Below, in pieces: positions 383 through 64,000 of a stretch of 64,000 nt of DNA. A model generated the notes under the pieces. The model saw only the letters and a program-made list of their open reading frames with translations. It did not search any database and was not told the origin of the DNA. This DNA is from an uncultured Methanosarcinales archaeon (lineage in GTDB: Archaea > Nanobdellota > Nanobdellia > Woesearchaeales > CAYVYK01). Location of the stretch: contig CAYVYK010000001.1 of NCBI GenBank assembly GCA_964455675.1, forward strand, positions 140,463 through 204,462, written 5' to 3'. Both the position numbers and the translations under genes were made by a program. Each line of letters starts with the position of its first letter. The first letter of the stretch is position 1.

Positions 383-466
383 GGTACACCCCCCTGTTGA
401 TGCGAGACTCGAGTTGTACAAAGTATTTAAACCTAATGATGACGGTAGAAGAAACAAAATTGTTGT

Positions 467-736
467 TTATTCTTCAGATTCAGGTGTGCTTGGTACTGCT
501 GCCTTGCTGATGACCATGACATCGCCGATGGCTTTCACAAGTTGATGGGGTACAATGACTCCTTTAGCAGTTCCGAGGATCTTGTTTAGGAATGAGTTTT
601 TTGTCGCCCGAACGCGCCACCCAAAGACTTTGGTTTGGCTCAGGATGACTTCTTCGACATCTCCAAAATATTCGCCGGTATCGGTAAAAACTTTCATATC
701 ATAGCATTCGGTTATTGCTTTCATTTTCAGCATCAT
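467..736 (-). CDS. PRC-barrel domain protein
   Basis: MKVFTDTGEYFGDVEEVIL...VIVPHQLVKAIGDVMVI is a typical archaeal single PRC barrel. Start could be 742, 736 or 733. Confidence 0.85.
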   Translation of the reverse strand: MMLKMKAITECYDMKVFTDTGEYFGDVEEVILSQTKVFGWRVRATKNSFLNKILGTAKGVIVPHQLVKAIGDVMVISKAAVPSTPESEE

Positions 737-2377: not shown

Positions 2378-4711
2378 ATGGGTGAAAAAAAGGGTTTTAT
2401 CGTCCACGCGACGTATCGTGTTGAAGATTCTAAGGCAAAGGTATACCTTTTCGGGCGCTTGGATTGTGGTGAGAGCTTTTGCGTGATTAATGATTACCGC
2501 CCATACTTCTACATCCGGGAGTCAGATGAGGCGAAAGCGAAGAAGTTGTTGAAGGTCGAGTTTGTGAAGACAAAGCGCAAGAATTTTGATCGCGAACCTG
2601 TCGTCATGCTCACGTTTGACAATCCCAAGGATACACCGCAGATGCGCCGGCTCTTGCAGGAAAATGGAATCTCGTGTTATGAGGCCGATATCAGGTTTGC
2701 CTATCGTTACATGATCGATCATGATATCAAGAGTGTGGTTGCTATCAGTGGTGAAGCAGAAAAGCCTCCGGCAGGATTATTTGTCGATAGGGTATTCAGG
2801 AATGCGAAGGTTAGGCCTTCATCTTTTGATCAGGAGTTGAAGATTCTCTCGATTGATATTGAGACAGCGGGGGATGCGAGTCAAGTCTACTCGATTGCCC
2901 TCGTGATGGGCGAGAAAAAGGAAGTGCTGATTACGAAGAATGTCAAGCAAAAGCACGCGGTCCCTTGCGCATCCGAGGAGGAATTGCTCACGAGGTTGCT
3001 TGATAATATCCGTGCGTGGGATCCTGACATCATCTTGGGTTGGAATGTGATTGATTTTGATCTCAAGGTCTTAAGGGAGCGATTGAAAAAGTATGGAAAA
3101 GAACTTACGATCTGTCGTGACGATACTCCGTGTGCGCTTTCTCTTTCGACATCGTATTTCATGGATTCGACGGCGAAGTGCCCGGGCCGTATGGTGCTTG
3201 ATGGTATCAGCCTTCTGAAGGCATCATTCATTCGTCTTGATGATTATAAGTTGAATACCGCCGCAAAGGAATTTCTAGGCGAGGAGAAAGAGATCACGTC
3301 CAATGACCGCAGGGCAGAGATTGAACGATTGTTTCGCGCAGACCCCGGATCGCTTGTGTCGTATAACTTGAAGGACGCGGAGCTTGCGCTTGGCGTCGTG
3401 CAGAAGTCGCGCGCACTGGAGCTTGCACAGAAGCGTTCAGTAATAACGGGGATGGAGCTTGATCGAGTCAAGGCATCTATCGCATCGCTCGACTCATTGT
3501 ATCTTAGAGAGCTAAAGGAGAAAGGATTTGTAGCCCCTTCTGGTGAGCACCTTGATCGCGAGGAGCGTATCCGCGGGGGGTTCGTGCGTGACTCGGTTCC
3601 TGGGGTGTATGATAATATTATCGTCTGTGATTTCAAGAGTCTGTATCCAAGCTTGATGCGTACGTTCAATATTGATCCGTGGAGTTTTGTGCCAAAGAAG
3701 CATCTCAAGGAGTACAAGAAGAAAGAATTGATTGAAGCTCCTAACGGCGCGCATTTCCTGAATGCAGACGGGATCATGCCTATGATTTTGGAGTCGCTCT
3801 TCAGGCAGCGTGAGCTCGCGAAGAAGAATAAGGATGATCTTGCATCCTACGCGCTGAAGATTACGATGAATTCATTCTTTGGAGTGCTGGCGAGTCCTCA
3901 GTGCAGGTTTTACAGTCTCGAGATGGCGAATGCAATCACCCACTTTGGTCAGTTCTTCATCAAGCTGAGCGCTGAGAGGATTGAGGAAAAGGGTTTCAAG
4001 GTTATTTATGGCGACACGGACTCGCTCTTCATCAGCACAAATGATGGCGACTATGAGAAAACTCTTGTTCTTGGGAAAAAGATCGCAAAGGAGATGAACG
4101 AGTTTTTCAGGGAGTACATCAAGGAGAAGTACGGTCGTGAGAGCGTTCTTGAACTTGAATTTGAGAAGGTGTACAAGAAGTTCCTCATGCCAAGGATTCG
4201 CGGGAGTGAGAAAGGGGCAAAGAAGCGCTACGCGGGAATTATTGTCAAGGATGGCAAAGAGGTGATGGACTTTGTGGGCCTTGAGTTCGTGCGCTCTGAT
4301 TGGACTGAGCTCGCGAAGAGGTTTCAGCTCGAGCTCCTCGAGTCAGTGTTTCGAGGGCAGGACCCTATTCCCTGGGTCCGAAAGTTCATCATGGACTTGC
4401 GGATTGGCAAGTTCGACGACCTGCTTGTGTATAAGAAAGCGATTCGCAAAGGCGTTGAAAAGTATACCAAGACTACACCTCCGCATATCAAGGCGGCAAG
4501 AAAGATTGGAAGGAGTGATATGGGAATAATTAGTTATGTGATGACATCAGATGGCCCAGAGCCTGTTGAGGCAGTAAAGCACCCGCTTGATTATGAGCAT
4601 TATATTGAGAAGCAGCTGCGCCCTGTAGCAGAGGCTATTCTTCAGTTTTCCAGTGTGCGGTTTGACGACGCATTGACGGCACAAAAACAGAGCAAATTAT
4701 CGGGGTTTTAA
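2378..4711 (+). CDS. pol: Family B DNA polymerase with proofreading exonuclease
   Basis: Exo motifs DIET, GWNVIDFD, YNLKDA; polymerase motifs DFKSLYPS, KITMNSFFG, YGDTDS, KKRYAG; C-terminal PIP-like QSKLSGF. Likely start MGEKKG at 2378. Confidence 0.95.
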   Translation: MGEKKGFIVHATYRVEDSKAKVYLFGRLDCGESFCVINDYRPYFYIRESDEAKAKKLLKVEFVKTKRKNFDREPVVMLTFDNPKDTPQMRRLLQENGISCYEADIRFAYRYMIDHDIKSVVAISGEAEKPPAGLFVDRVFRNAKVRPSSFDQELKILSIDIETAGDASQVYSIALVMGEKKEVLITKNVKQKHAVPCASEEELLTRLLDNIRAWDPDIILGWNVIDFDLKVLRERLKKYGKELTICRDDTPCALSLSTSYFMDSTAKCPGRMVLDGISLLKASFIRLDDYKLNTAAKEFLGEEKEITSNDRRAEIERLFRADPGSLVSYNLKDAELALGVVQKSRALELAQKRSVITGMELDRVKASIASLDSLYLRELKEKGFVAPSGEHLDREERIRGGFVRDSVPGVYDNIIVCDFKSLYPSLMRTFNIDPWSFVPKKHLKEYKKKELIEAPNGAHFLNADGIMPMILESLFRQRELAKKNKDDLASYALKITMNSFFGVLASPQCRFYSLEMANAITHFGQFFIKLSAERIEEKGFKVIYGDTDSLFISTNDGDYEKTLVLGKKIAKEMNEFFREYIKEKYGRESVLELEFEKVYKKFLMPRIRGSEKGAKKRYAGIIVKDGKEVMDFVGLEFVRSDWTELAKRFQLELLESVFRGQDPIPWVRKFIMDLRIGKFDDLLVYKKAIRKGVEKYTKTTPPHIKAARKIGRSDMGIISYVMTSDGPEPVEAVKHPLDYEHYIEKQLRPVAEAILQFSSVRFDDALTAQKQSKLSGF

Positions 4712-9247: not shown

Positions 9248-10228
9248 TGCACTGAAGATGCGACTAACCCCCGCGTAGATCATGAAATAGATGGAGTAGC
9301 AGAGGAAAAGGATTGGTAAAAAATATCTCAGGCCTTCTCGAGCCTTTCCTTTGTTGATGAGCCCGACAACGAGGCTTCCCATGAATGCAGATGCAGCAAG
9401 AGAGATCATCGAAAATGTTATAATAAATGATGGTGATATGCTGATGGCCGAGAATGTGACGGGAAGATTTGACCCGGAAAGTTCAGAGAAATCAAATTTG
9501 GAGATCATTGTGGTGAGCACACTGACGAGCACGGTGCTAAGCCCAAAGAGTAGTGGTGCTCCAAAGCCGATCGCTACAACAATAAAAATCACGTATGTCC
9601 CGACGCTAGATTTGATCTTTTCTTGGAGGAATTGCTGGTTGCGAAGGTTCTTCGCGGTCTGCTCAAGGAGTGTTGCGATCTGCCCTCCGGAATGAAGTCC
9701 GGAGATGATGAGCATGAGTGTCTTGTTGAGCGTTTCTGACCTGATGCGCGCAGTGAGACTCATGAGTGCCACATCGAGTTCTCGTCCTGTGGCAAGTTCT
9801 TTTCCGACCTGCACCATTTCCTGCTGGAATGATCCAAATTCTGGTCGGGCAGCCATGAGAAGCGCGCGGTCGATTGTCATTCCGGCGCGAAGGTTTGATG
9901 CCATAAGCTGGAGCACGTCCGGAAGGATGAGCTCGACGAAGTGCGCCTTGCTGTCAACCATGAGGTTGAGCAGCATGTAGACGAAGAATTGGAATGCGAT
10001 GAAGAGGCCGATGAAGAGGATGAAGAAGAGTCTTTGGCTGTCAAATACGTACGAGACAAAGAATGCGACTGCAAGGCTTACGAGGAAGCCAAAGAATATC
10101 CAGAATCCAAGGTAAATATCTGGTCGTATTTTGATATCAGCGTAGATGAGGAGCTTGCGGTACCTCTCTTGTAGGTTTCTTGGGAACAGGCGCGAGATGA
10201 ATTGGTAGATTTTTTCGTGCTGCACCAT
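9233..10228 (-). CDS. Type II secretion F-family / TadC-like pilus platform protein
   Basis: LPDVLQLMASNLRAGMTIDRAL...SGGQIATLLEQTA; multi-TM; downstream of a secretion ATPase. Confidence 0.9.
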   Translation of the reverse strand: MVQHEKIYQFISRLFPRNLQERYRKLLIYADIKIRPDIYLGFWIFFGFLVSLAVAFFVSYVFDSQRLFFILFIGLFIAFQFFVYMLLNLMVDSKAHFVELILPDVLQLMASNLRAGMTIDRALLMAARPEFGSFQQEMVQVGKELATGRELDVALMSLTARIRSETLNKTLMLIISGLHSGGQIATLLEQTAKNLRNQQFLQEKIKSSVGTYVIFIVVAIGFGAPLLFGLSTVLVSVLTTMISKFDFSELSGSNLPVTFSAISISPSFIITFSMISLAASAFMGSLVVGLINKGKAREGLRYFLPILFLCYSIYFMIYAGVSRIFSALGLL

Positions 10229-11121
10229 TAGTCATTCCCCAAGAGGTTTGGTCGCCGTGATCTGATAACACCCATGAACATGATTTGTACAAAGATGACA
10301 AGCGCAAACAGCGCATAAAATAGTATCTTCGTGATCTCGCTGCCGAATGAGACTAGTGATGATATGAGGACGAGGAAGGTCATGCCAAGGCTTGGTACGA
10401 TGACTGCAAGCAGCATATAGAACATGGCAAGCGGATTGAGCGCTGCACCGTAGCGCTGGATTTGGAGCGTTTGCTGGTCTTCGATTTGCGCAAGGATCTC
10501 CTTCAGGACCGCTGAGAGATCAGCTCCAGTCTTCATACCATTAACAATCTGCCAAAGGGCTCCGCGAAAGAGGCGTGATGGATTCTTTCGTGCGATCTCT
10601 TCTAGGGCCGCAACCTCAGCGCTTCCAGCATTGATCTCTCGTACGGCCTTGGCGATTTCCGCCGAGAGCGCCCCATAATCTCCTTTTGATACATTCACCA
10701 GTGAATTGAAGACCGGCACTCCGGAGTTAAGCTGCACGAGGAGGTTCTGCATCGCTGGCAAGAGGTTACGGTCGATCCCTGCGATCCTTTTGGTAATGAT
10801 AGATCTTGGGTAATTCACTTGGAGGAAGAATATGAATATTGCTGGCACAAGTGAGAGTAGCAAGGAAACGATAAAGTAGTGGTTTACTTCAACTTTAGAG
10901 AAGACCATAAGCTCTATGATAAAGAAGAAGATGAATAGAAAAAGGTCATGCAGAAAGCAGATGGAAAGATATTCTCGGTGGTCGATGCGAAGTTCCGCCT
11001 GGTCCATTTGGATGGCAAGATGCGGAAAAATTCTTGAGAGGAAGTCCCCGACACCGATGAGTCCCTTTGATAGTTTCTGAAGGATTTGCAGAGGCAGAAA
11101 GATGAATGGTATCTTGATCAT
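10228..11121 (-). CDS. Type II secretion F-family / TadB-like pilus platform protein
   Basis: IDRNLLPAMQNLLVQLNSGVPVF...TGADLSAVL; multi-TM; translationally coupled to its neighbours. Confidence 0.9.
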   Translation of the reverse strand: MIKIPFIFLPLQILQKLSKGLIGVGDFLSRIFPHLAIQMDQAELRIDHREYLSICFLHDLFLFIFFFIIELMVFSKVEVNHYFIVSLLLSLVPAIFIFFLQVNYPRSIITKRIAGIDRNLLPAMQNLLVQLNSGVPVFNSLVNVSKGDYGALSAEIAKAVREINAGSAEVAALEEIARKNPSRLFRGALWQIVNGMKTGADLSAVLKEILAQIEDQQTLQIQRYGAALNPLAMFYMLLAVIVPSLGMTFLVLISSLVSFGSEITKILFYALFALVIFVQIMFMGVIRSRRPNLLGND

Positions 11122-12644
11122 GTGCTGTCCCCCGACTCAAGGATGGTTCGAGGGTCCTGATTGCTGTTGACAACTTTGAGTAGATTCTCTTGGTTGAGGT
11201 AGTACTCGCTAATAATTTTACCCACCTGCTCAACTTGCCGAATGTTGTGTTTCTGTAAGTACAGGAGGATCGCTTCTTTTTGTTTAAGATCTGCGTGGAT
11301 TTCTGATTCGTTAAGGCCGGTGTGGCGTGAAAGATCTTCATAGAAGCTTTCCGGTTTTCCATGCATGACGATCTTGTCTTCCCCAGGCTTCCACCGGTAG
11401 AGTATGGCGCCGGTAACGAGTGTTTTCTCGCCCTCTTCGGTAACTTTGAATTCTCCGATCTGGAACGTGCGTCTGATGCCGTGCCTCCTGTCCCTGAACA
11501 TGACAATGTTGAGGTTGACTGCCCCAAGGAGATTTGCTGGGATGGAAAGCGGGGGATTGATGAGTCGGGAGATTGTTTCGTTTACGGAATCAGCGTGGAG
11601 CGTTGCATATACCGAGTGACCGGTATGCATTGCCTCAAAGAGTACTTCCGCCTCCGCTTTTCGTCGCATTTCGCCTAGGATAATGCGGTCAGGTCTCATA
11701 CGTAGGGAATTCACGAGCAGGTCAAGCATGCTGACTTCTCCTTTTCCTTCTGAGTTTGGCTGTCTCGTCGTGAGCGGGCACCAGTAGAGGTGCTTGGGGA
11801 GCTGCAACTCGCGCGTGTCTTCTATCGTGAGGATGCGCTGGTCGGGTGGTATGAATGGTAGGATAACATTGAGAAAGCTTGTCTTTCCTGATCCCGTTCC
11901 TCCGCTGATGATGATATTCATCTCATACTGCATCGCTAGCCATATAAGACTGAACACTTCTGGTGTTGAGGTGTTGCTGTTGATAAGGTCTGTTACAGTC
12001 CAAGGATCTCGCGCAAACTTACGAATGGTGATTGTGGCTCCCTTGTTGGAGATGGGAAAGAGCACGGCATTCGCGCGGTCTCCAGTTGGTAAATGTGCGT
12101 CAAGGAGCGGCACAAGAGTGGATATCTGTCTTCCGACGCGTCTTGCGATGATGTTGCAGTAGTTTTGGATCTGCGCCTCGGTTTCGATATGAACGTTCGT
12201 AATAAGCCATCCAAATTTTTTGTGGTACACTCTGATAGGCTCGCGCGCGGAGAGAATGATCACTTCTTCAAGCTGCGGATCGTTGAGAAGGTACTCGAGA
12301 TTGCCAAAACCGACCATATCATGCAGGAGTGATACGACAAGGAATGTGCATGTACCCTCGGGAGCGCCAGGTAAGTTCTTTCGGATGTATTCCATCGCAC
12401 GCTCACGAAATTTAGATTTGATCTTGTCGATCGCTTCGGGATCAAGTATTTCTGATGATGATATTGCTACTTCCGCGACAAGATTACGCCGAACATCATC
12501 AAGCATGGCTTGTGTTGGTTTTGATATGAGAGGAAACTGGAGATCATATGTCTTGAGCGTGCTCCGGTGCTGCCGGACAATGACTTTGAGGGCTACGCCG
12601 TCGGCCACTACGTCATATTGGTCTATTATGGTTCCGGCCATCAT
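11118..12644 (-). CDS. CpaF/TadA/VirB11-family pilus assembly ATPase
   Basis: Walker A GGTGSGKT, TIEDTREL, SLRMRPDRIILGEMR, AMHTGH...TLHA. Start could be 12650, 12644 or 12641. Confidence 0.95.
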   Translation of the reverse strand: MMAGTIIDQYDVVADGVALKVIVRQHRSTLKTYDLQFPLISKPTQAMLDDVRRNLVAEVAISSSEILDPEAIDKIKSKFRERAMEYIRKNLPGAPEGTCTFLVVSLLHDMVGFGNLEYLLNDPQLEEVIILSAREPIRVYHKKFGWLITNVHIETEAQIQNYCNIIARRVGRQISTLVPLLDAHLPTGDRANAVLFPISNKGATITIRKFARDPWTVTDLINSNTSTPEVFSLIWLAMQYEMNIIISGGTGSGKTSFLNVILPFIPPDQRILTIEDTRELQLPKHLYWCPLTTRQPNSEGKGEVSMLDLLVNSLRMRPDRIILGEMRRKAEAEVLFEAMHTGHSVYATLHADSVNETISRLINPPLSIPANLLGAVNLNIVMFRDRRHGIRRTFQIGEFKVTEEGEKTLVTGAILYRWKPGEDKIVMHGKPESFYEDLSRHTGLNESEIHADLKQKEAILLYLQKHNIRQVEQVGKIISEYYLNQENLLKVVNSNQDPRTILESGDST

Positions 12645-55086: not shown

Positions 55087-56208
55087 ATGATTAATCGGGG
55101 GCTTGTTCCGTACATACAGTCATATCTCAAACAGGGGGCAAACCGTTCTTTGATTGTTCAGTACCTCGCGGCATACGGATATTCGAGGAAGGATATCGAG
55201 GACACGTATGATTTTCTAAGTAAGTCAGAATCCCGCCCGTTTCCTGTATTGATTATCGTTCTAGCTCTGTGCGCTCTGGTGCTTATCGGTAGTGCAGTCT
55301 ATTTTCTCACAAAGCCTCCAGAGGCTCGTTTCTCGTTTACTGCTTCGCTTCCTGAAGAAAAGTTTATTGGAGGCCGGGACATCCTGTTATCATACTCACT
55401 GCAGGCTGTTGGCATGAAAGAGAACCGAGAATCAGTCATTTTCGAGACGGTGCGCGATAATGCTGGTGACGTAGTGTACCAGTCAAACGAAGTGTTATTG
55501 TCTGCAAAAGTTGACACCAAGACTATCCGTCTCTCTGAGGACAAGCTCCCCCCGGGGGACTACACACTGAAGTTGAAGGTAACAAATGGAAAATCCTCAT
55601 TCGAACGTGATCTCCCTTTTTCAGTCCTGGCAGAACGTGATCCTTGCGCAAACGGGCTTCGTGACGTTTCTGAAGAGGGAGTGGACTGTGGGGGTTTCTG
55701 CAAGCCATGCAGTGTTATGACACCATCGCCAACGGCAGTATCCTGTGATTTTGACTGTGACGATGAGAACCCCTGTACGCGAGACAGCTGTGATTCACGG
55801 TTGAACCAGTGCATGCACGAGCAAATTATCCCCTGCTGTAAGAATGAGGTGTGCGAGAGTACCGAAAGTAAGGAGACTTGTCCTGAGGACTGTTCGGGGG
55901 TGCTGCCTTCCGAGTTAACGCCATTCCAGGTGATAGAGCGTGCAGCGCTTCTCGCGTCTGACGATCTCGAGAAAGCTGCGCAGCTTTGCCGCACGCTCGA
56001 GGAGTTTGACGATAAAAATGCATGTTTCGACCGAATAGCTCACGTTGTGCAGAAGAGTAGTGTGTGCGACCTCGTGGAGGGTGACTTGCAGAGTGCGTGT
56101 TACATGGACTTTGCGATGAAGGGCGATTATTCGGTTTGTGAGAAAATCACGAACAAGTATCTGCGTGATGCCTGTGATAATCTTGAGCAGTTGCAGGCTT
56201 CCCTTTAG
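55087..56208 (+). CDS. Membrane-anchored Cys-rich surface protein
   Basis: Small cytoplasmic helical domain, TM, Ig-like region, then CANG...VDCGGFCKPC, CDDENPCTRDSC, CKNEVCE...TCPEDC and helical Cys repeats. Confidence 0.85.
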   Translation: MINRGLVPYIQSYLKQGANRSLIVQYLAAYGYSRKDIEDTYDFLSKSESRPFPVLIIVLALCALVLIGSAVYFLTKPPEARFSFTASLPEEKFIGGRDILLSYSLQAVGMKENRESVIFETVRDNAGDVVYQSNEVLLSAKVDTKTIRLSEDKLPPGDYTLKLKVTNGKSSFERDLPFSVLAERDPCANGLRDVSEEGVDCGGFCKPCSVMTPSPTAVSCDFDCDDENPCTRDSCDSRLNQCMHEQIIPCCKNEVCESTESKETCPEDCSGVLPSELTPFQVIERAALLASDDLEKAAQLCRTLEEFDDKNACFDRIAHVVQKSSVCDLVEGDLQSACYMDFAMKGDYSVCEKITNKYLRDACDNLEQLQASL

Positions 56209-57116
56209 GACAGAGTACGTATCTCTGTACAGAACGGCGTGAGTTGCGGTTCTTCAACGATCGTGATGCACACTTTTTGGAAGTCCTTCTGTGACTCTAT
56301 CGTTTTTTGGTTGCTGATGACTTCGCCGTAGCTAACGGTTCCTGAGTACACGCTTACTTCTTCATCACCTTTTAGCGTGACACTGTACGCAGACTGGTTC
56401 CATCCCTGGCTGCATGCTTGTACGACATATGAAACAAGGAAACTATCACCGTTCTTCTGTCCGTATGCGTTCATGGTAGTGACGCTTGACCTCTCGCACG
56501 CCCCGGGTATGAGTGTTGGATTATTGAGCGCATCCGGATTCTGTTCGAGTGCCTGGGCTGTTGCTTCAGAGACGGTTGGCATCGTGTTCACTCCAGGGTC
56601 GCTTGTGTATTCTTGCGGTGTCGTGCTTTCAGGCTCTGAGCTTTCCCATTTGTCTTTGCACATGTCATCAATCCATCCGTAAGCGAATGGTCCGAGGTAT
56701 TTGTTGACAGTATTGCCAATGAGTTGATCAACGGTGTTTGCGAACATGGTCTGTGAGTATTTTGCGTCGATGGCATTCTTCTGTTGTGCGGCAAGGTTGA
56801 CATCGGTGCTCTCATCGATAGGCTGTCCGCCGTGAGGATCGTCGTCTCCTTCCCTAATCTCTACTTCGCCTTCAGGTCTGTCTGGTGGTGTTGGTTCTCC
56901 CTCTGGTCTATCGGGTATGGTTGACTGCTGGGTTGGTTCCGGCTCCGTTTCAGGTCTATCTGGTGTGGTCTCTTCTGGTGGTCCAACAAATTGGTCATCC
57001 ATTGAATCCGGTTCGTCATCGACGCTTCTTCCCGTGATGGATGCATGAGGCAGCAGGAGAGCCGCAACTACAAAAATCGCAAGCGTCAGTGCGAGCGTCG
57101 TGTATGCTTTGCTCAT
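56205..57116 (-). CDS. Secreted or anchored acidic protein with PDRPE repeats
   Basis: N-terminal hydrophobic segment plus SITGR, three PDRPE copies, Cys-containing C-terminal beta domain; ATGA overlap. Confidence 0.82.
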   Translation of the reverse strand: MSKAYTTLALTLAIFVVAALLLPHASITGRSVDDEPDSMDDQFVGPPEETTPDRPETEPEPTQQSTIPDRPEGEPTPPDRPEGEVEIREGDDDPHGGQPIDESTDVNLAAQQKNAIDAKYSQTMFANTVDQLIGNTVNKYLGPFAYGWIDDMCKDKWESSEPESTTPQEYTSDPGVNTMPTVSEATAQALEQNPDALNNPTLIPGACERSSVTTMNAYGQKNGDSFLVSYVVQACSQGWNQSAYSVTLKGDEEVSVYSGTVSYGEVISNQKTIESQKDFQKVCITIVEEPQLTPFCTEIRTLS

Positions 57117-58636
57117 GTGCCCTCATCTGCTGGTTGTTCTGGTTCTGTGATCTCTTCAGTTGTAGCTTCGGGGATTTCTTCAGGTGGCTCTTCAGTATCA
57201 GGCGTTGGCGTCGCAATTCTCTTCGGGAATTCGATGCGTGCCGGTGCTCGTTCTACATCGGCATCCTGTGGTCCTACTTGTGATTCAAGGTTAACTGGTG
57301 TTGGAGCCGGGAGTGCATTGTAACCCTGCGCGCGCTGGTTTTCTGCTTCCTGTTTCTTGTTTGTCCAGCTTTCAAATCCTAGTGTGAATATCTCAGTGCT
57401 CTTGTACCGGTCGCGCAGGTTTGGCTGGAATTGTGATATTTGTGACGTGTCGATGTCCTGGCATTTGACGTCGCTAAACTCCGCGCTTGAGAGTTCCTCC
57501 CATGCGTCAACAAGATTCTTGATATTTTGGGGGATCTGGATGAGTTCCATGATGGACGTGAAACAGTTGAGGAGCGGTATGAGGAATGAAAGGTATTTTG
57601 TGATGAGCGCGGTGATAATCCTTGAGAGGATCATCGTGAGTATTCCAATCAATAGCCCTATAATTGTCTGCAGGAGTGATCCTTCCCAGTACATGCAGAG
57701 CTGTTCGCTTAGAGCCCGCTCGCAGGATTCCGTGCTTCCCCCGCTCTTGCATGCTTGCTCGATGCAGCAGTTGTACACTTGATAGATCGTCTTGAGTTTC
57801 TTGAGATTGATGAGGATTGCTGTGGGGCAGAGGCACGCAACTGCTGTCCAGATATTGTCTTTTGCGTTGAGGTGCCCCTTTAGGCTTCCAAGCGCCGCGG
57901 ATCCAATCCCTTCGGGGAACGCGATCTCGGTGATTTTTTTGTTGCCATAGATGCTTTTGTAGTCGTTGACCATTCCTTGATATCCTTTGGCGAGGAGCGG
58001 CTGTCCTGATTTCGGCATGCTCTCATACGCTTTCATTCTGTCGCTGAATGATTTTGAGAATGATGCATCGAATTTTCCTTTCGCTCCCATATTTTTTGCC
58101 ATGATGTTGAGACTGTCCCAGCAGCTTCTTCCGCTGCACCATGGGATGAATCCGCACGTGACGAAGCAGCAGATGAGGCTGATGGGCATGGTTGCTGCCT
58201 TCCATGCCATGACTGTTTTCTCGACGCCATGGCACACTGCAACCATGGGGGGGAATACCCATTCAGTGCACTCCTGAACGAGGCATACTCCTTTCACGAT
58301 CGTAAGCATATTATCAAGTAGTGAACTGATAATGCTGTACATCGTGCATAGTGCGTACATGACTTCGACAATTGCAGTGAGCGTTCTTATGACATCACTA
58401 TCGAGGAACTTGACAAGACTTTCTCCTTTCTGTTTTTTGTCAATGCATGACTTTGCTGCGTTGTTGAACCCAAAAGGCGCGGGTAGACCTGTGCTTGTAC
58501 TGTAATTTGTTCCAAGTGTGGCGTCGCCCGTGACATCGTTCATGATACTATTGATCTGTTCGAGAGTGCTTGCAGCGCTGACTGGTATGGTGACGACAAG
58601 AATCATAAGGATGAGCGCGATGAGTTGCTTGTTCAT
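57113..58636 (-). CDS. Secreted Cys-rich protein with internal hydrophobic helices
   Basis: Signal peptide MNKQLIALILMILVVTIPVSA, 19 Cys by my count, acidic P/E/T tail; GGTGA RBS and ATGA overlap at 58633-58636. Confidence 0.85.
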   Translation of the reverse strand: MNKQLIALILMILVVTIPVSAASTLEQINSIMNDVTGDATLGTNYSTSTGLPAPFGFNNAAKSCIDKKQKGESLVKFLDSDVIRTLTAIVEVMYALCTMYSIISSLLDNMLTIVKGVCLVQECTEWVFPPMVAVCHGVEKTVMAWKAATMPISLICCFVTCGFIPWCSGRSCWDSLNIMAKNMGAKGKFDASFSKSFSDRMKAYESMPKSGQPLLAKGYQGMVNDYKSIYGNKKITEIAFPEGIGSAALGSLKGHLNAKDNIWTAVACLCPTAILINLKKLKTIYQVYNCCIEQACKSGGSTESCERALSEQLCMYWEGSLLQTIIGLLIGILTMILSRIITALITKYLSFLIPLLNCFTSIMELIQIPQNIKNLVDAWEELSSAEFSDVKCQDIDTSQISQFQPNLRDRYKSTEIFTLGFESWTNKKQEAENQRAQGYNALPAPTPVNLESQVGPQDADVERAPARIEFPKRIATPTPDTEEPPEEIPEATTEEITEPEQPADEGT

Positions 58637-61008
58637 GGTATCACCTTCGGGCGGAGTGCGTTCATGTACTCTTCTTTTGGTATGCTGAAGGGTACGATCT
58701 CCTCGCACGGGCCTTCCTCGATTTCTCGATCGTATCCGTACACATGCAAGAGCTTCGTTCCAGGTCCGGAGCAGATCGGCTCGGTGCCTTCGTATCCTTG
58801 TATTTCTTGTTGGTACACGAATTGAGCGCTGAGATCCTTGTCTTCAGTGATATAATCATTCAGTAATCCTTCCCATGAATCTTCAAGTGCTGGAGATTCC
58901 CATGCGTATACCTTGAGGGTCCTATTTGCGTCTTCCCGTGTGATGTCCTGGACGCTGATGAGCGAAGGTGACGGGACAACTGCTTTTGCTCCCGTAGAGT
59001 TTCCATTTGGTAGTTCGGGGAGTCTCTGCTGCTTGCCAAAGAGGATTGTCTGGAACTCATGTATCCCTTCATGAAGCATCATGTGGTTCTGTGTCGGGTA
59101 TGATATGAATGGTACGTCTGCCGTAGGGACTGTGATGAGCGTTTTTTCGGAGTCATCAAGAGTCTCCTCCAAGCTTTCAGGTCGAAGGTCTCCTGACTCT
59201 TTTGCCTGAACCAAGTACTCTCTGATAGGTATTTTTGCGACGGTGATGTTCATGGGTATCTGGACTTGGAGGCGGTACGTGATGCTTCCTGTTTCTGTTC
59301 GATAACTGCTGAGCATGTAGTGTGCTTTTGCGTACTGTGGATGGATGATCGTAAGCTCTCCGTTGATGCAGCTAGGTACCTTTGACTCAAGTTTTCCTGC
59401 TGTCGACGTCCTTCCAAGGCTGCATATCTGCTGCCCCGCTCCGCATTGGTACTGTAATTCCGCTCCACTGATTGGTTGCTGTGTTTTTTCCTCAATCACT
59501 ACCGCTCGCAATGTGAGGGGTGCTGGTGAGTTCTTGCAGTATCCGTAGTCTTGGAGAATGCCTAGCCCTGTGAGATTCTTGATTGCATGCTCGACATCGA
59601 GCATGTACTGCGGTCTGCTTACGCATCTCCTATCCTGGTTGCCGCAGAGGAATGCCTTGATCGCGAACGTGAATGTGAATCCTCCATCGCTCGTAACTTG
59701 TTCATTTTTGAGGTCGATCCTTCCTGACTCCGGGTCGTGGATGTCGTAGAACACGGGGTACGTTATGAAATATTTGTATGCGTATTTGTATGTGCAGAAT
59801 TGTGGAAGGAATGGTATTCCTTTCCCGGTGTGTTTGTCTGGCTTGATGCTGTCCCCATCTCTCGGATAGATATCAAACTCCCATCCTCGTTCATCCTTCA
59901 AGTCGTGTTGTACGCGTACCGGGCTGTAATCATGGAGCAGGAAGTCTTCCTTGAACTGCTTGATCATAGCTTGCTCGATCGCGTCTTGGCTCGTCCTTGG
60001 TGTATAGCTTGTTCCCTCGAGCTGGATTTCTGGAATATATGTTTGAAGGAGCGTCTTGGTGTTCTGTTCGACAGATGGAAGGCTCCACGTGACTCCTTCG
60101 CAGTTTGTATTGCTGAGGCTGCCGTAGAATGGAGGAAGTAGATTTTCGTCGATACCCTGGTAGTATCCAAGGATTCGTTTGGTTTGTCGTTCGAGGTAGT
60201 TTGCGTAGAACTCATAGACTGTTATTTCCTGAGCGAGGAGCTGTATTTTTTGTAGATCGATAGGAACGCTGTATTCGAACGTGTCGATTTTCCATTCTCC
60301 ATTCTTCTGCACTCTGAGTGGATAATTGACTCCGACCATGACTGCTGTATCGAATGTGACATAAGCTATGGGATGTTCCGCAATGACCGTATACCCCTGA
60401 TCCTCGAGAGCCTTGAAATCTGCCGTGCATAGAGGAAGCCGTTGCGCGATATATTTTTCGAGTTCGTGTTCCATCACTCCTTTGCTTGGGAATTCTGCCT
60501 TCTCCTCGGTAATCCAGATGGCAGTGCGTGTAGTGCCATCCCCTTCGATGAGCCTTGGGACTCCTGAAACGGTGCCAGCATGCCAACCTTTTGTGGTATA
60601 CTCTGCGTTGGGCCGTTCGTTAATGTAGATGTACCCTCCCTGTCTTCGGAGTATCTCGAGGCCCTCGAGAGTGATGCTCCTAATGCAGCTGTCAACAAAG
60701 TCCTTCACCCGTATCTGCTCTTGGTTGAGCTGGATGACTTCTGCCTCTTCTGGTTGGAATTCCGTTTGTGCATGCGAGAGATACCAATAGATGATTGCGC
60801 CACCAAGTATCAGGAAACCGACGACAATGAGGAACAGGCTGAGCTGGGCTTTCTTCCGTGCGCGCTTGAGAAGGATGTCTCCATTTCTTGTGACATCGAA
60901 CTTGAGCGCTGCTCCTTTATGGATGCCGAGAAGATCGATGATTGCTTTGGGTATGGTAATAACATACTGGTCCTGCGGTGTTCGTTGGACCTTCCGCTTC
61001 AGAGTCAT
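58633..61008 (-). CDS. AbrB/SpoVT-like domain fused to a class III signal peptide and a large extracellular region
   Basis: MTLKRKVQRTPQDQYVITIPKAIIDLLGIHKGAALKFDV (AbrB pattern), then RARKKA|QLSLFLIVVGFLILGG, then VKDFVDSCI...QGGYI and a carboxypeptidase-regulatory-like segment. Confidence 0.85.
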   Translation of the reverse strand: MTLKRKVQRTPQDQYVITIPKAIIDLLGIHKGAALKFDVTRNGDILLKRARKKAQLSLFLIVVGFLILGGAIIYWYLSHAQTEFQPEEAEVIQLNQEQIRVKDFVDSCIRSITLEGLEILRRQGGYIYINERPNAEYTTKGWHAGTVSGVPRLIEGDGTTRTAIWITEEKAEFPSKGVMEHELEKYIAQRLPLCTADFKALEDQGYTVIAEHPIAYVTFDTAVMVGVNYPLRVQKNGEWKIDTFEYSVPIDLQKIQLLAQEITVYEFYANYLERQTKRILGYYQGIDENLLPPFYGSLSNTNCEGVTWSLPSVEQNTKTLLQTYIPEIQLEGTSYTPRTSQDAIEQAMIKQFKEDFLLHDYSPVRVQHDLKDERGWEFDIYPRDGDSIKPDKHTGKGIPFLPQFCTYKYAYKYFITYPVFYDIHDPESGRIDLKNEQVTSDGGFTFTFAIKAFLCGNQDRRCVSRPQYMLDVEHAIKNLTGLGILQDYGYCKNSPAPLTLRAVVIEEKTQQPISGAELQYQCGAGQQICSLGRTSTAGKLESKVPSCINGELTIIHPQYAKAHYMLSSYRTETGSITYRLQVQIPMNITVAKIPIREYLVQAKESGDLRPESLEETLDDSEKTLITVPTADVPFISYPTQNHMMLHEGIHEFQTILFGKQQRLPELPNGNSTGAKAVVPSPSLISVQDITREDANRTLKVYAWESPALEDSWEGLLNDYITEDKDLSAQFVYQQEIQGYEGTEPICSGPGTKLLHVYGYDREIEEGPCEEIVPFSIPKEEYMNALRPKVIP

Positions 61009-61031
61009 GTAAGAGGATTTATGCGAATACC

Positions 61032-61065
61032 CTTTAAAAAGATTACTATTAAAATTAATAGTAAT
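61032..61065 (-). promoter_or_regulatory. TATA box with adjacent palindromic operator candidate
   Basis: Minus-strand TTTTTAAA at 61040-61033, 24 nt from the ATG; ATTACTATTAA-AA-TTAATAGTAAT at 61042-61065. Confidence 0.7.
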
Positions 61066-61111
61066 TAAGTCTATAAAAATATGTAAAATCTTCAATCGTC
61101 TTCATCAGGAG

Positions 61112-62824
61112 CTACCTCGTGAGCTTCTCTGCTTTTGGGTGCTCGTGATGCGCGTTTTTGCGCTCATGGAGATGCTGGATATGCTTGAGTTTCTCCTTTA
61201 AGAATCGTCGTGTATCGAGGCCGTAGTTTTCAAGGAGTATGCACGTATGGTGAGCCCCAAGGAAGTGTGGCATGATTACGTAGCTAGCTCCAACGTCGTA
61301 GAGTTGCATGGCTTCCTCAATCTGATGGGAAACAACAATAATGATTGATCTCTTGTTGCGTTGGCGTATCTTGCTGATAAGAAGGAGGTTCGTTTCAAAG
61401 TCAGGGATGGTGGAGACGACCATCCTTACATGTTCAAAATCTAGTTCGTTGAGGAGTTCATCATCACTTGCGTCCCCATACTGACTCGCTATTCCCCGCC
61501 GTGCAAGCTCCATGACTGTCCTTGGTTCATAGTCGATGACAAGATATTCCTTTTTGAGTTTTGTGACGGATTCTACGAGGCTTGACCCTATTCTGTTATG
61601 CCCGAATATGATGATATCGTATGAGACATCGTTATGGTATCTGTGCTCGTCCTTCTTCTGTCCTTTTCGCTGGAAAATTGAGAGATATGGCGACAGGATG
61701 CCATAGATAGCCCGTGAGTTGAAGATGAGGTACGTGGATGCGGTGATGCTGATGATTCCGATGATGGTGATGAGCGATATGGTTGATGATGGGATTGCGC
61801 CCGTGGCAGCACCAAGGCCGATAATGATGAATGAAAACTCGCTGATTTGCGCAATGGCAAGTCCCGTAAGGAAGCTGTTTCGTTTGGTGTAGCCCATGAT
61901 TCCCATAATAGCCATGACCGCGAGAGGTTTTCCTATGATGACGAAGAGCGAAAGGATGATGATCAACCATAGGTTTTGCACGATGTCTGATGCAACGATC
62001 TGTGAGCCAAGGAGGATGAAGAACAGTATGATGAAGAAGTCACGTAGGTATTTGAGCTTGCTGCTTATCTCATAGTGGTAGGGTGTGAGTGCGAGGGTGA
62101 CTCCCGCAAGGAGCGCGCCGATCTCGACGGATAGCCCAAAGTACGCAAAGAGTGATGCGAGCGCAAGGCACCATCCGATGGAGAAGAGGAAGAGGTATTC
62201 TTGTGATTTTGCTATTGCTCCGCCGATGCGGGGGAATATGTAAAGTGCGATGGCTCCAAGAACAATCACTAGTGCAAAGCATTTTGCAAGGTTAAAGAGT
62301 CCCATAGTAAGCATGGACTCTCCGCTTCCTGAGAGGAACATGAGGGCAAATATGGCGATGAGGTCCTGCATGATGAGAATACCCATGGTGATTCTGCCGT
62401 AGAGTGATTCATTTTCTCCTTTGTCCGTAAGTATTTTCATGACGATGATCGTGCTGCTAAACGTTAGCGCAACCGCAAGGAAGAGTGATGCGCTATTCGA
62501 AAATCCTAGAAGGAGTGATAGGCCAAACGCAGCAGCTCCAGTGAGTAACACTTGTCCGATTCCTGCAACAACAATGACCACTCCAACATCGCGAATCATT
62601 CGAGGATTAAGGTTAAGACCGACGATGAAGAGAAGTAGGGCAACTCCGATGCGCGCTAGCGTGGTGAGTGTCTCAGAGTGGTCGATAAGATGGAGGAAGC
62701 TGACGACAATACCTGTGATGATGTAGCTGATGATGAGCGGTTGTTTGAGAATCCGCGCGATTGTGGCGACGGCGAGAACAAGAATCATGATCAGGCTGAC
62801 TTCCGTGAATACTTCCGCGACCAT
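61112..62824 (-). CDS. CPA2 cation:proton antiporter with TrkA-N (RCK) domain, Kef-like
   Basis: LLFIVGL, FSSTIIV, LIMQD, GALLAG, QISEF; C-terminal IIFGHNRIG...YGDASD...GASYVIMP. Confidence 0.92.
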   Translation of the reverse strand: MVAEVFTEVSLIMILVLAVATIARILKQPLIISYIITGIVVSFLHLIDHSETLTTLARIGVALLLFIVGLNLNPRMIRDVGVVIVVAGIGQVLLTGAAAFGLSLLLGFSNSASLFLAVALTFSSTIIVMKILTDKGENESLYGRITMGILIMQDLIAIFALMFLSGSGESMLTMGLFNLAKCFALVIVLGAIALYIFPRIGGAIAKSQEYLFLFSIGWCLALASLFAYFGLSVEIGALLAGVTLALTPYHYEISSKLKYLRDFFIILFFILLGSQIVASDIVQNLWLIIILSLFVIIGKPLAVMAIMGIMGYTKRNSFLTGLAIAQISEFSFIIIGLGAATGAIPSSTISLITIIGIISITASTYLIFNSRAIYGILSPYLSIFQRKGQKKDEHRYHNDVSYDIIIFGHNRIGSSLVESVTKLKKEYLVIDYEPRTVMELARRGIASQYGDASDDELLNELDFEHVRMVVSTIPDFETNLLLISKIRQRNKRSIIIVVSHQIEEAMQLYDVGASYVIMPHFLGAHHTCILLENYGLDTRRFLKEKLKHIQHLHERKNAHHEHPKAEKLTR

Positions 62825-62897: not shown

Positions 62898-64000
62898 TCA
62901 GATCTTGCTGATGAATCCTTTGCGTGGTTCGAATACATCCCCTTCTCTTTTCAGCCGTTCGAGAACTTCGTCAACGGTGCTTCGGTCAAGCCCTCGTTCT
63001 TGTGCGACGGCGATGATATCCTCGATCTGGATGCTCTTGCCAAGCTCTTTCTCGAGTTCATTGATGATTTCCTTGACGGTAACGATCTTGTTGCGTTTGC
63101 TTGCTGGCATGTCGCTTGCGATGCGGTCGATATCGATCGTTCCTGTTTCAGTGTCAAATGCAATCTGCCGTAGACAGAAGTTGAGGAGCGCAATTGCGCG
63201 TTGTGCATCCTCGCGGATGACTTTTTGTCGGAGATGGATTTTTGCGCTTGCTTCCGCAAGCCTGATGAGTCCCTCAAGCTGCCTGGCAGAGATGGGGATT
63301 GACTTGATGCCTGATTCTGTCGTCCCTGATGCGCGCATCTTGAGGTAATATTCGCGTATTTCTTCGCTTGCTTCCTTCGTGAGGATTGGTTTTATTGTCT
63401 GTTTTGCGTATGCGATGTATTTGCGGAGCAATCGGTCATCGATATCCGGCTCTTGTCCGACGGGTGTTCCTGTTCGGTGCAGCTCGAGGAGGAATGTTGC
63501 AAGCTTGTCATCTTTTGCTTGGTCAGGTAAGTCTTTGATCGGAAAGATCAGGTCAAACCTATTGATGAGTGTGCTCGGAAGATCGATTTGTTCCGCTATC
63601 GTTCCGTACGGATCGAACCTTCCAAACTTTGGGTTTGCCGCGGCAAGTACGGTTGTCTCGCACCGGAGCGTTGCCTGGATGTTTGCTTTTGAGATCGTTA
63701 CGGTTTGTCCTTCGAGTGCTTCATGCATGGCGCTCGTGTCGTCCTTGCTCATCTTGTCGAGTTCGTCAATGCAGCAGATGCCGCGGTTAGCAAGAACGAG
63801 CGCTCCTGCTTCAAGGCTCCATCCTCCAAGAAAGTCATCCTTGACAACGGTTGCAGTTAGCCCTGCTCCGGAAACTCCTTTTCCTGAGATGAATTTTGCT
63901 TTGGGTGAGACGACATTGATGCGCTTAAGGAGCATTGACTTTCCGCTTCCAGGATCTCCCACAAGGAGCATATGAATATCCCCTCGTGTTACGACGCCGT
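62898..64000 (-). CDS. mcm: MCM replicative helicase, C-terminal part; gene starts beyond the window
   Basis: RGDIHMLLVGDPGSGKS, LEAGALVLA, CIDELDKM, AAANP, NRFD, SARQLE, C-terminal winged helix. Confidence 0.96.
   Translation of the reverse strand, partial: GVVTRGDIHMLLVGDPGSGKSMLLKRINVVSPKAKFISGKGVSGAGLTATVVKDDFLGGWSLEAGALVLANRGICCIDELDKMSKDDTSAMHEALEGQTVTISKANIQATLRCETTVLAAANPKFGRFDPYGTIAEQIDLPSTLINRFDLIFPIKDLPDQAKDDKLATFLLELHRTGTPVGQEPDIDDRLLRKYIAYAKQTIKPILTKEASEEIREYYLKMRASGTTESGIKSIPISARQLEGLIRLAEASAKIHLRQKVIREDAQRAIALLNFCLRQIAFDTETGTIDIDRIASDMPASKRNKIVTVKEIINELEKELGKSIQIEDIIAVAQERGLDRSTVDEVLERLKREGDVFEPRKGFISKI

What the first reader, a model, noticed from the sequence alone, without database searches (positions are those of the whole stretch)
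60780..61065. AbrB-type DNA-binding domain as the cleavable leader of a prepilin-like surface protein, with its own operator candidate
Seen: the first 54 codons read like a complete AbrB/SpoVT/MazE swapped-hairpin domain. They run in frame, with no stop or internal Met, into RKKA|QLSLF and a hydrophobic helix. A perfect 11-bp-arm palindrome (61042-61065) lies immediately upstream of the TATA box, over the BRE position. Known: PibD/FlaK-type peptidases cut class III leaders on the cytoplasmic face; such leaders are normally short; AbrB-fold dimers often bind AT-rich palindromes in their own promoters. Inference: maturation of the surface protein would release a soluble regulator, or an uncleaved one would stay membrane-tethered. 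Either would couple expression of the operon to pilin processing. I do not know of a described system like this.
Basis: partly seen in the sequence, partly recalled or inferred. Interest (0 to 1): 0.85.

Follow-up and report, generated by a model that had tools for sequence, protein, structure and literature searches.

The report
Regulator gene fused onto adhesin leader
In one uncultured DPANN-type archaeon, a small DNA-binding regulator gene is fused in frame to the front of the surface-protein gene it normally precedes, so the pilin-type cleavage site now lies between the two; relatives keep the genes separate, so this is a one-off natural fusion, not a new kind of system.

Summary
Window 61008..58633 (-) is one 791-aa ORF. 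Residues 15-53 pass Pfam's AbrB/MazE threshold. It runs without any ATG/GTG/TTG into RKKA|QLSLF plus a transmembrane helix. A perfect 11+11 palindrome sits just upstream of a TATA-like box.

The reading as an evolved "AbrB leader" system is only partly supported. The body belongs to a family of about 740-aa surface proteins: 1886 representatives, found in 183 of 201 genomes searched in the order. Their pilin-type (class III) leaders are 3-27 aa. The AbrB part is orthologous to free-standing 50-55-aa AbrB genes. In relatives the stop of that gene overlaps the start of the surface-protein gene (ATGA in two loci). In 401 genomes, all 150 listed AbrB matches lie in 47-170-aa frames except this one.

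So two coupled genes were fused here, probably by a small change at the ATGA overlap. Independent contigs from two runs carry the fused sequence, and no single indel would separate the genes, so an error is unlikely.

The palindrome core recurs upstream of orthologous abrB genes and is the likely operator. Inference: the genome's single prepilin peptidase would cut the fusion back into its two ancestral products. Nothing at this locus was noted earlier in the scan.

The parts
58633..61008 (-). Fused ORF of 791 aa: AbrB domain + class III signal peptide + surface (adhesin-like) protein. The stop at 58633-58635 overlaps the ATG of the next gene (ATGA).
60847..61008 (-). Residues 1-54, the AbrB/MazE-type domain (Pfam match residues 15-53 = nt 60850..60966). 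It aligns end to end with free-standing 50-55-aa AbrB proteins of relatives at 34-44% identity.
   Evidence: homodimer model
60853..60861 (-). Fusion joint: codons GCA CGG AAG (A50 R51 K52). Relatives have the abrB stop overlapping the start of the surface gene here.
   Evidence: inference on the mutational path
60844..60858 (-). Class III (prepilin-type) cleavage motif R-K-K-A|Q, now 54 residues from the N-terminus.
60769..60846 (-). Hydrophobic N-terminal helix of the mature protein (residues 55-80).
61042..61065 (.). Perfect palindrome (11-nt arms, 2-nt spacer); candidate AbrB operator directly upstream of the TATA-like box.
61033..61040 (-). TATA-like box TTTTTAAA, centred about 28 nt upstream of the ATG. 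This fits a leaderless or short-leader transcript.
   Evidence: assignment by recalled archaeal promoter consensus, not tested
57113..58636 (-). Second operon gene: a Cys-rich multi-pass membrane protein. It starts in an ATGA overlap with the fused ORF. A homologue follows the surface gene in L054.
56205..57116 (-). Third operon gene: a 303-aa secreted or anchored protein, again starting in an ATGA overlap.

Best explanation
The ORF is a lineage-specific in-frame fusion of two neighbouring genes that are translationally coupled in relatives. One is a 50-55-aa AbrB-type regulator, probably the autorepressor of this operon acting at the palindrome. The other is a surface protein of about 740 aa with a class III (prepilin-type) signal peptide.

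In relatives the abrB stop overlaps the start of the surface gene. Here that overlap reads ...GCA CGG AAG..., so both the stop and the ATG are gone and the frames are joined (inferred path: ATGA to ACGGA).

Expected behaviour, all inferred. The hydrophobic helix inserts with the N-terminus inside, leaving the AbrB domain in the cytoplasm. The intact RKKA|Q site is cut by the genome's single A24 peptidase on the cytoplasmic face. That cut would regenerate the two ancestral products: a 54-aa AbrB the size of the free-standing orthologs, and the normal mature surface protein. The fusion would then be nearly neutral, which would explain why it is tolerated.

Shown here: domain identity, the fusion anatomy, separateness in relatives, and conservation of the palindrome core. 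Inferred: cleavage, DNA binding and repression.
For: The AbrB domain scores over the Pfam cut-off. A two-copy model gives an intertwined dimer: ipSAE 0.53 against a best control of 0.00, runs agreeing in at least 92% of contacts, partner pLDDT at least 76. That mark was reached by 20 of 30 proteins solved as pairs and 1 of 23 solved as single chains. The pass may come from likeness to solved AbrB dimers, and my own 5-row alignment was used.

The body belongs to a large family: 1886 representatives at E<=1e-3 and 183 of 201 genomes searched in the order. Of the 150 best other members, 135 have a recognisable site. Leaders are 3-27 aa in 134 of them and 63 aa in one (P0022, not AbrB). Ours is 54 aa. 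An HMM built from free-standing AbrBs hits only P0001 among 151 proteins. The closest members (43-45% identity) begin with a four- or five-residue leader before QL.

Separate abrB genes abut the surface gene in L059 (ATGA overlap), L016/G159 (ATGA), L017/G051 and L054/L064 (17-20-nt overlaps). The three scanned (L017, L054, L059) pass PF04014 at 27-37 bits.

In 401 genomes, 124 have an AbrB-profile match. All 150 listed matches lie in 47-170-aa open frames except the window's (822).

The other two junctions of the window's operon are ATGA overlaps. Synteny is conserved: the MCM gene lies directly upstream of abrB in L017 and L054, and the Cys-rich gene lies downstream at E 3e-31.

The internal site matches 11 N-terminal [KR][GA]Q-plus-hydrophobic sites in the same genome, whose leaders are 3-11 aa. 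One PF01478 peptidase is present.

The fused sequence is identical, with no gaps or variants, in contigs from two runs that bridge the joint.

Operator: an 18-mer is shared with the G051 abrB upstream region, and 0 of 5000 shuffles reach 18. The 20-nt core of the window's palindrome gives a summed mismatch of 30 over 7 orthologous upstream regions, against a shuffled mean of 51.2; 0 of 1000 shuffles reach 30.
Against: Only contigs could be laid, not raw reads, at depths of 7 and 10. Both runs come from one study and may be the source of this DNA, so a minority unfused variant cannot be excluded.

No genome of the same family is held. The age of the fusion is therefore unknown, and it could be fixed and functional in a whole lineage.

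No known class III leader recalled by me is a folded 54-aa domain. Cleavage of such a substrate is untested and could fail.

The palindrome lies upstream of the TATA-like box here but directly before the ATG in G051, so the mode of regulation may differ. Three of the 7 orthologous upstream regions (L219, L220, L054) do not individually exceed shuffles.

In the full-length AF2 model residues 1-51 have low pLDDT. The alignment had no rows covering them and the domain needs a dimer, so this is weak evidence.
Confidence: 0.7

Rival explanations
1. First reader's reading, narrowed to this lineage. The fusion is kept by selection because release of the AbrB repressor now depends on membrane insertion and peptidase cleavage of the surface-protein precursor. 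Operon expression is thereby coupled to successful processing.
For: The ORF is intact over 791 codons. All 10 invariant positions of the AbrB orthologs are kept. The class III site is intact and the operator-like palindrome is intact. The topology is coherent: N-terminus inside, with cleavage on the cytoplasmic face (recalled knowledge of A24 peptidases).
Against: No second example was found among 150 family members or 150 listed AbrB matches in 401 genomes. The ancestral overlap already coupled the synthesis of both proteins, so the gain would be small. With no close relative available, selection cannot be tested.
Confidence: 0.15
2. The fusion is not processed. The protein stays as a membrane-tethered AbrB with an ectodomain, similar in layout to ToxR/CadC, or it is a crippled adhesin on its way to loss.
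For: The 54-aa leader lies far outside the 3-27-aa range of the family. The predicted dimeric fold next to the membrane could hinder the peptidase. The genome had 6 matches to this protein, its own gene included, so some redundancy exists.
Against: The cleavage motif is unchanged relative to working sites in the genome. There are no other lesions in the ORF.
Confidence: 0.1
3. Sequencing or assembly artefact: the organism really has two separate genes.
For: The fusion is unique among all relatives examined. The genome is a metagenome-derived assembly of modest depth.
Against: Contigs of 3.8 and 10.3 kb from two runs, with no differences or gaps across 60500-61200, bridge the joint. Splitting the genes needs at least two changes, because there is no in-frame ATG/GTG/TTG anywhere between Met1 and the helix.
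Confidence: 0.05

Closest known systems
Free-standing AbrB/MazE/SpoVT-type small regulators (PF04014), here the 50-55-aa orthologs encoded directly upstream of the same surface-protein gene in related archaea
   Same: Same domain and same length, 34-44% identity. Predicted intertwined dimer. A palindromic AT-rich element lies in its own promoter.
   Different: Here the protein has no stop codon of its own and continues into a signal peptide and a 737-aa surface protein.
Class III (type IV prepilin-like) signal peptides of archaeal surface proteins, cut by PibD/FlaK/EppA-type A24 peptidases
   Same: A [KR][GA]|Q site followed by a hydrophobic helix. Homologs carry it at the N-terminus. The peptidase, T4F ATPases and platform proteins are all encoded.
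   Different: The leader is a folded 54-aa domain instead of 3-27 unstructured residues. Processing is untested.
Membrane-anchored transcription factors of the ToxR/CadC/TcpP type, and factors released by regulated proteolysis (recalled, not searched)
   Same: Cytoplasmic N-terminal DNA-binding domain, one transmembrane helix, large outside domain. A protease could release the DNA-binding part.
   Different: A different DNA-binding fold. The outside part is an adhesin-like protein with beta-sandwich domains, not a sensor. The architecture is not conserved.
Type II toxin-antitoxin operon layout (small AbrB or RHH gene first, overlapping the next gene)
   Same: A small AbrB or RHH gene overlaps the start of the downstream gene, and these small genes are interchangeable between loci.
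   Different: The downstream gene is a secreted protein of about 740 aa in a conserved core locus next to MCM, not a toxin.

Membership tests
AbrB/MazE/SpoVT domain (PF04014) | Profile score over the curated cut-off | tested here: met
   27.0 bits against 24.7, residues 15-53. TIGR01439 scores 23.9 against 28.3 on the whole protein and 28.3 on the first 84 aa.
AbrB/MazE/SpoVT domain (PF04014) | Intertwined (swapped-hairpin) homodimer | tested here: inconclusive
   The two-copy model passes: ipSAE 0.53 against a best control of 0.00, at least 92% contact agreement, pLDDT at least 76, with contacts over residues 2-49. The mark was reached by 20 of 30 proteins solved as pairs and 1 of 23 solved as single chains. 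A pass for a family with solved dimers may come from likeness.
AbrB/MazE/SpoVT domain (PF04014) | Binds DNA, often in its own promoter | not testable with these tools
   Only indirect: the palindrome core is conserved upstream of orthologous abrB genes.
Class III signal peptide (prepilin-like) proteins | [KR][GA] followed by a hydrophobic stretch of about 20 residues | tested here: met
   RKKA|QLSLFLIVVGFLILGGAIIYWY. The same pattern occurs at 11 N-termini in the genome and in homologs.
Class III signal peptide (prepilin-like) proteins | Site close to the N-terminus (short charged leader) | tested here: not met
   Leader of 54 aa against 3-27 aa in 134 of 135 family members with a site.
Class III signal peptide (prepilin-like) proteins | A24 prepilin peptidase and T4F machinery in the genome | tested here: met
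   PF01478 once, at 40 bits. PF00437 six times and PF00482 four times.
Class III signal peptide (prepilin-like) proteins | Cleavage at the site; assembly into a filament | not testable with these tools
   No proteomic or RNA data were available.
Membrane-tethered transcription factor (ToxR/CadC-like layout) | Conserved architecture of DNA-binding domain, TM helix and outside domain | tested here: not met
   The layout is present here but in no relative.
Type II toxin-antitoxin pair | A small toxin gene downstream of the AbrB/RHH gene | tested here: not met
   Downstream lies a secreted multi-domain protein of about 740 aa.

The most novel reading that the evidence does not exclude
In this lineage the prepilin peptidase has become a processing enzyme for a transcription factor. 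Every precursor of the surface protein that reaches the membrane and is cut releases one AbrB repressor subunit. Operon expression would then be fed back from completed export rather than from translation alone. This would be a natural case of a folded DNA-binding domain serving as a class III leader, and it would show that A24 peptidases accept a leader of 54 or more folded residues.
Probability: 0.25. Interest if true: 0.7.

Novelty: new variant of a known kind. Interest (0 to 1): 0.4.

Why it matters
As a system it is a singleton, so its general weight is modest.

It is still a ready-made natural substrate for one open question: can archaeal prepilin peptidases process a long, folded leader? 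It also shows how ATGA-overlapped genes can fuse with little cost when a protease site lies at the joint.

The wider by-product may matter more. In this order of small-genome archaea (earlier scan notes label the genome Woesearchaeota-like; I did not test this), a very common family of about 740-aa class III surface proteins is often preceded by a small, abutting gene of one of several types: AbrB, RHH, or an unnamed family of about 90 aa. The AbrB type comes with a conserved palindrome. This gives testable regulators and operators for the cell-surface apparatus of uncultured DPANN archaea.

Tried and rejected
- The search for related loci with the single protein found no relative in metagenome contigs or genome contigs. 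Only the alignment query worked.
- The word-index search with residues 1-90 returned only the protein itself among 142 candidates.
- The word-index search with the 54-aa AbrB part found no candidate. This is a limit of the method, not evidence of absence. The profile search over genomes found the orthologs.
- A scan of genome contigs for the 18-mer gave at least 120 hits in unrelated AT-rich bacteria and archaea. These are chance matches at that database size and say nothing either way.
- Several genome-search hits seemed to run into the AbrB region across a stop. After fetching them, most turned out to have a membrane-protein gene of about 250-300 aa upstream, so those extensions were spurious.
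- In the full-length AF2 model residues 1-51 have low confidence. The alignment had no rows there, so I do not count this against the fold.
- Foldseek against PDB gave only low-TM matches to beta-sandwich stalk domains of Gram-positive pilins and adhesins. No overall fold was assigned.
- Literature searches: 'AbrB' + 'class III signal peptide' gave 2 unrelated papers (listing only). The PibD/leader and DPANN/type IV pili searches were seen as listings. In PMC13705601 I read only passages found by term search, and 'AbrB' occurs 0 times. No paper describing an AbrB-led class III protein was found by these searches. Supplements were not read.
A differently built test is.
Full report
WHAT IS THERE

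On the minus strand an ORF runs from the ATG at 61008 to the stop at 58633-58635 and encodes 791 aa (P0001). Residues 15-53 match Pfam PF04014 (MazE/AbrB) at 27.0 bits, over the cut-off of 24.7. The first 84 residues alone score 31.6 bits. NCBIfam's AbrB domain model TIGR01439 gives 23.9 bits on the whole protein (cut-off 28.3) and 28.3 on the 84-aa piece.

Reading the codons, there is no in-frame ATG, GTG or TTG between Met1 and the hydrophobic stretch. The text ...ILLKRARKKA|QLSLFLIVV... is continuous. The palindrome at 61042-61052 / 61055-61065 is perfect, with 11-nt arms and a 2-nt spacer. Of the 25 longest inverted repeats shown for the window, out of 67 pairs found, it is the only one with non-overlapping arms. 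It occurs once in the 1.72-Mb genome, which has GC 0.49. A TATA-like TTTTTAAA lies at 61033-61040, about 28 nt before the ATG.

THE BODY OF THE PROTEIN

phmmer against 1.84 billion representatives finds 1886 relatives at E<=1e-3, 928 at E<=1e-10 and 79 at E<=1e-30. In the order to which the genome belongs, 183 of 201 genomes searched have the family, often in several copies. Three of those genomes (G182, G111, G120) are flagged unpublished; nothing specific rests on them.

In almost all of the 150 best hits, query residue 50-53 aligns with residue 2-5 of the hit. By my own pattern, 135 of these 150 have a [KRSNQ][GAS] site followed by a hydrophobic run. The leader is 3-27 aa in 134 of them and 63 aa in one (P0022, an extra hydrophobic segment, not AbrB). 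The other 15 gave no site; most align from well inside the query and look N-terminally truncated. P0001 has a 54-aa leader. An HMM built from three free-standing AbrB orthologs hits only P0001 among all 151 proteins. The two closest relatives (43-45% identity) begin with a four- or five-residue leader before QL.

An AF2 model built on 94 sequences is confident from residue 52 onward: mean pLDDT 88, a helix at 52-80, then mixed alpha/beta and beta-sandwich domains. Foldseek finds only low-TM likeness to stalk domains of Gram-positive pilins and adhesins, and to transthyretin-like and CnaB domains. The body is therefore an adhesin-like surface protein with a class III, pilin-type signal peptide, of an unnamed but very common family in this order. 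Earlier scan notes call the genome Woesearchaeota-like DPANN. I did not test that label. The Atlas neighbours of a flanking gene family are listed under Woesearchaeota/Nanobdellota.

THE AbrB PART IS A SEPARATE GENE IN RELATIVES

Metagenome loci found with a family alignment (43 loci) and genome loci show a small gene ending at or overlapping the start of the surface-protein gene.
- In L059 a 51-aa AbrB ORF (408..563) overlaps the next ATG (560).
- In L054, and in L064 whose reported match figures and printed small-ORF translation are identical, a 52-aa AbrB ORF (3998..4156) overlaps the start of the surface gene by about 20 nt. MCM lies directly upstream and a Cys-rich membrane protein downstream. 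That protein is homologous to window 57113..58708 at E 3e-31.
- L017 (G051) has a 55-aa AbrB, again directly after MCM.
- L016 (G159) has a 50-aa AbrB ending ...LRKK-stop, overlapped by the ATG of MKKAQLAIY.

The three small proteins that were scanned (L017, L054, L059) pass PF04014 at 27.0, 37.0 and 32.0 bits. All four align end to end with window residues 1-54 at 34-44% identity, with 10 invariant columns.

In a survey of 86 loci, own and duplicates included, 83 had an N-terminal hit. Of those 83:
- 2 lacked the N-terminal site and 2 had too little upstream DNA;
- 5 had an abutting AbrB gene;
- 6 had an RHH-type gene;
- 17 had a gene of an unnamed family of about 90 aa;
- 51, the window among them, had none by my three HMMs.
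By eye, 4 of those 51 carry a second RHH-like type and 1 a second AbrB-like type. Many others have a membrane-protein gene of about 250-290 aa upstream instead.

An independent test used a profile of the five AbrB orthologs over 401 genomes of the order. It matched 124 genomes. In the 150 matches listed (28 more were not listed), the open frame is 47-170 aa everywhere except in the window, where it is 822. Seven of those genomes are flagged unpublished (G209, G315, G131, G207, G244, G374, G205). The statement that G209 carries a free-standing ortholog rests on one of them. No genome of the window's own family is held, so the fusion cannot be dated.

THE JOINT

The window's other two operon junctions are ATGA overlaps, at 58636-58633 and 57116-57113. 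So are the abrB/surface-gene junctions of G159 and L059. At the equivalent place the window reads GCA CGG AAG AAA GCC CAG (60861..60844). A sequence ...GC ATG AAG AAA GCC CAG... would instead give an AbrB ending in A-stop and a surface protein beginning MKKAQLSLF, which is the normal form of the family. The simplest path is therefore replacement of the T of ATGA by CG. That change removes the stop and the start and joins the frames. This is an inference from comparison, not an observed event.

REAL OR ERROR

Two public runs hold the stretch. They come from one study and two samples, and either may be the source of this DNA. Logan's contigs from them (3.8 and 10.3 kb, word depths 7.1 and 9.7) cover 60500-61200 with 0 other letters and 0 gaps. 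However, no single indel could restore two genes, because the surface protein's frame has no start codon upstream of its helix. I put an artefact at about 5%.

THE PALINDROME

Its central 18 nt recur exactly in the 109 nt upstream of the G051 abrB gene. In 5000 dinucleotide-preserving shuffles of both regions, the longest shared word never reached 18; the maximum was 16.

I then took the probe from the window alone and scored its best match in the 150 nt upstream of seven orthologous abrB genes. For the 20-nt core:

| Locus | Mismatches | Shuffles reaching the observed best, of 1000 |
|---|---|---|
| L216 | 1 | 0 |
| L221 | 3 | 0 |
| L059 | 3 | 1 |
| L218 | 5 | 7 |
| L054 | 5 | 69 |
| L220 | 5 | 96 |
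| L219 | 8 | 841 |

The sum is 30, against a shuffled mean of 51.2, and 0 of 1000 shuffles reach it. The 12- and 16-nt cores give 1 and 0 of 1000. Three probe lengths were tried, and the loci are related, so these are not independent trials. L219 (G159) has a different perfect 10-nt inverted repeat of its own upstream.

A conserved, AbrB-linked cis element is thus well supported in about four of the seven relatives. That AbrB binds it is inference. Its position differs between genomes: upstream of the TATA-like box here, directly before the ATG in G051.

HOW IT MOST LIKELY WORKS

The following are shown:
- an AbrB-type domain;
- a class III site identical in type to 11 N-terminal sites of the same genome, whose leaders are 3-11 aa;
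- a single A24 peptidase gene;
- T4F ATPases and platform proteins, one set lying in this window.

A two-copy model of residues 1-54 gives an intertwined dimer. ipSAE is 0.53 against 0.00 for the best of three controls, contact agreement is at least 92%, and pLDDT is at least 76. The mark was reached by 20 of 30 proteins solved as pairs and 1 of 23 solved as single chains. My own 5-row alignment was used, and solved AbrB dimers may be remembered by the model.

The following are inferred. The helix inserts with the N-terminus inside. The peptidase cuts after A54 on the cytoplasmic face, releasing a 54-aa AbrB of the same size as the free-standing orthologs, together with the normal mature protein. 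The released AbrB represses the operon at the palindrome. On this view the fusion is undone after translation and costs little.

It is not a conserved design.

COMPARISON WITH WHAT IS KNOWN

The parts are members of known kinds: the PF04014 domain and a class III signal-peptide protein. The combination fails one defining feature of class III substrates, the short N-terminal leader, and it is not conserved as a ToxR-like architecture. It is not a toxin-antitoxin pair, although the small-gene-first, overlapping layout resembles one.

My literature searches found no description of an AbrB-led class III protein. Searches were seen as listings only, as passages of PMC13705601 found by term search, and no supplements were read. 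What I say about leader lengths of type IVb pilins and about PibD tolerance is recalled, not checked.

LIMITS

- No raw reads, RNA or proteomic data were available.
- There is no close relative to compare with.
- Cleavage and DNA binding are untested.

Noticed in passing
L015, L040-L044, L046-L049, L055, L061, L068, L073, L076, L078, L081, L082 (upstream of the surface-protein gene): An unnamed family of about 90-aa proteins occupies the same abutting position as AbrB in 17 loci. It has no Pfam match. Atlas neighbours are hypothetical archaeal proteins, and structural neighbours lie in proteins that also carry nucleotidyltransferase domains, under the bar for naming a family.
   Followed up: partly
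L065, L067/L080, L070/L071, L072; also L034, L035, L036, L089: Ribbon-helix-helix-type small genes of two sequence types sit at the same spot. RHH_5 matches have E 3e-4 to 1.6e-3, below the cut-off. The small gene in front of this surface-protein family seems interchangeable.
   Followed up: partly
G000: C6:39421-40341, C10:41539-42480, C6:105871-106902, C10:59736-60680, C1:12318-13298, C5:102644-103600, C7:102348-103238: The genome's seven other PF04014 matches are all N-terminal AbrB domains on proteins of about 300 aa. They look like the archaeal AbrB-PhoU-type regulators; that name is recalled, and the C-terminal parts were not scanned.
   Followed up: no
G000 contig C7, + strand, third forward frame (regex hit listed): A 137-aa ORF begins with a bacterial-type pilin N-terminus (MRRKG|FTLVELLV...) in this archaeal genome.
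   Followed up: no
L054 42..3743: The MCM gene upstream of abrB in this relative is 1233 aa and appears to carry an intein-like insertion. The window's MCM fragment (62898..63998) shows none in the part held.
   Followed up: no
window about 9545-12170 (G000:C1:150007-152632): A T2SSE-type ATPase and two T2SSF-type platform protein matches lie in this window about 50 kb from the finding. Earlier scan notes describe pilin and adhesin clusters nearby in the genome.
   Followed up: no
L016 1290-1313: The G159 abrB ortholog has its own perfect 10-nt inverted repeat with a 4-nt spacer upstream, unlike the window's palindrome. This may be a changed operator accompanying a changed protein.
   Followed up: no
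many loci, e.g. L019, L058, L063, L084, L087, L091-L093, L095: In many relatives a polytopic membrane-protein gene of about 250-300 aa, not a small regulator, ends within a few nt of the surface-protein start.
   Followed up: no
window 61112..62824 (-): A 570-aa Kef-type cation/proton antiporter with a C-terminal TrkA-like part lies between MCM and the fused gene. In L017 and L054, MCM abuts abrB directly. The family assignment is by eye and was not scanned.
   Followed up: no
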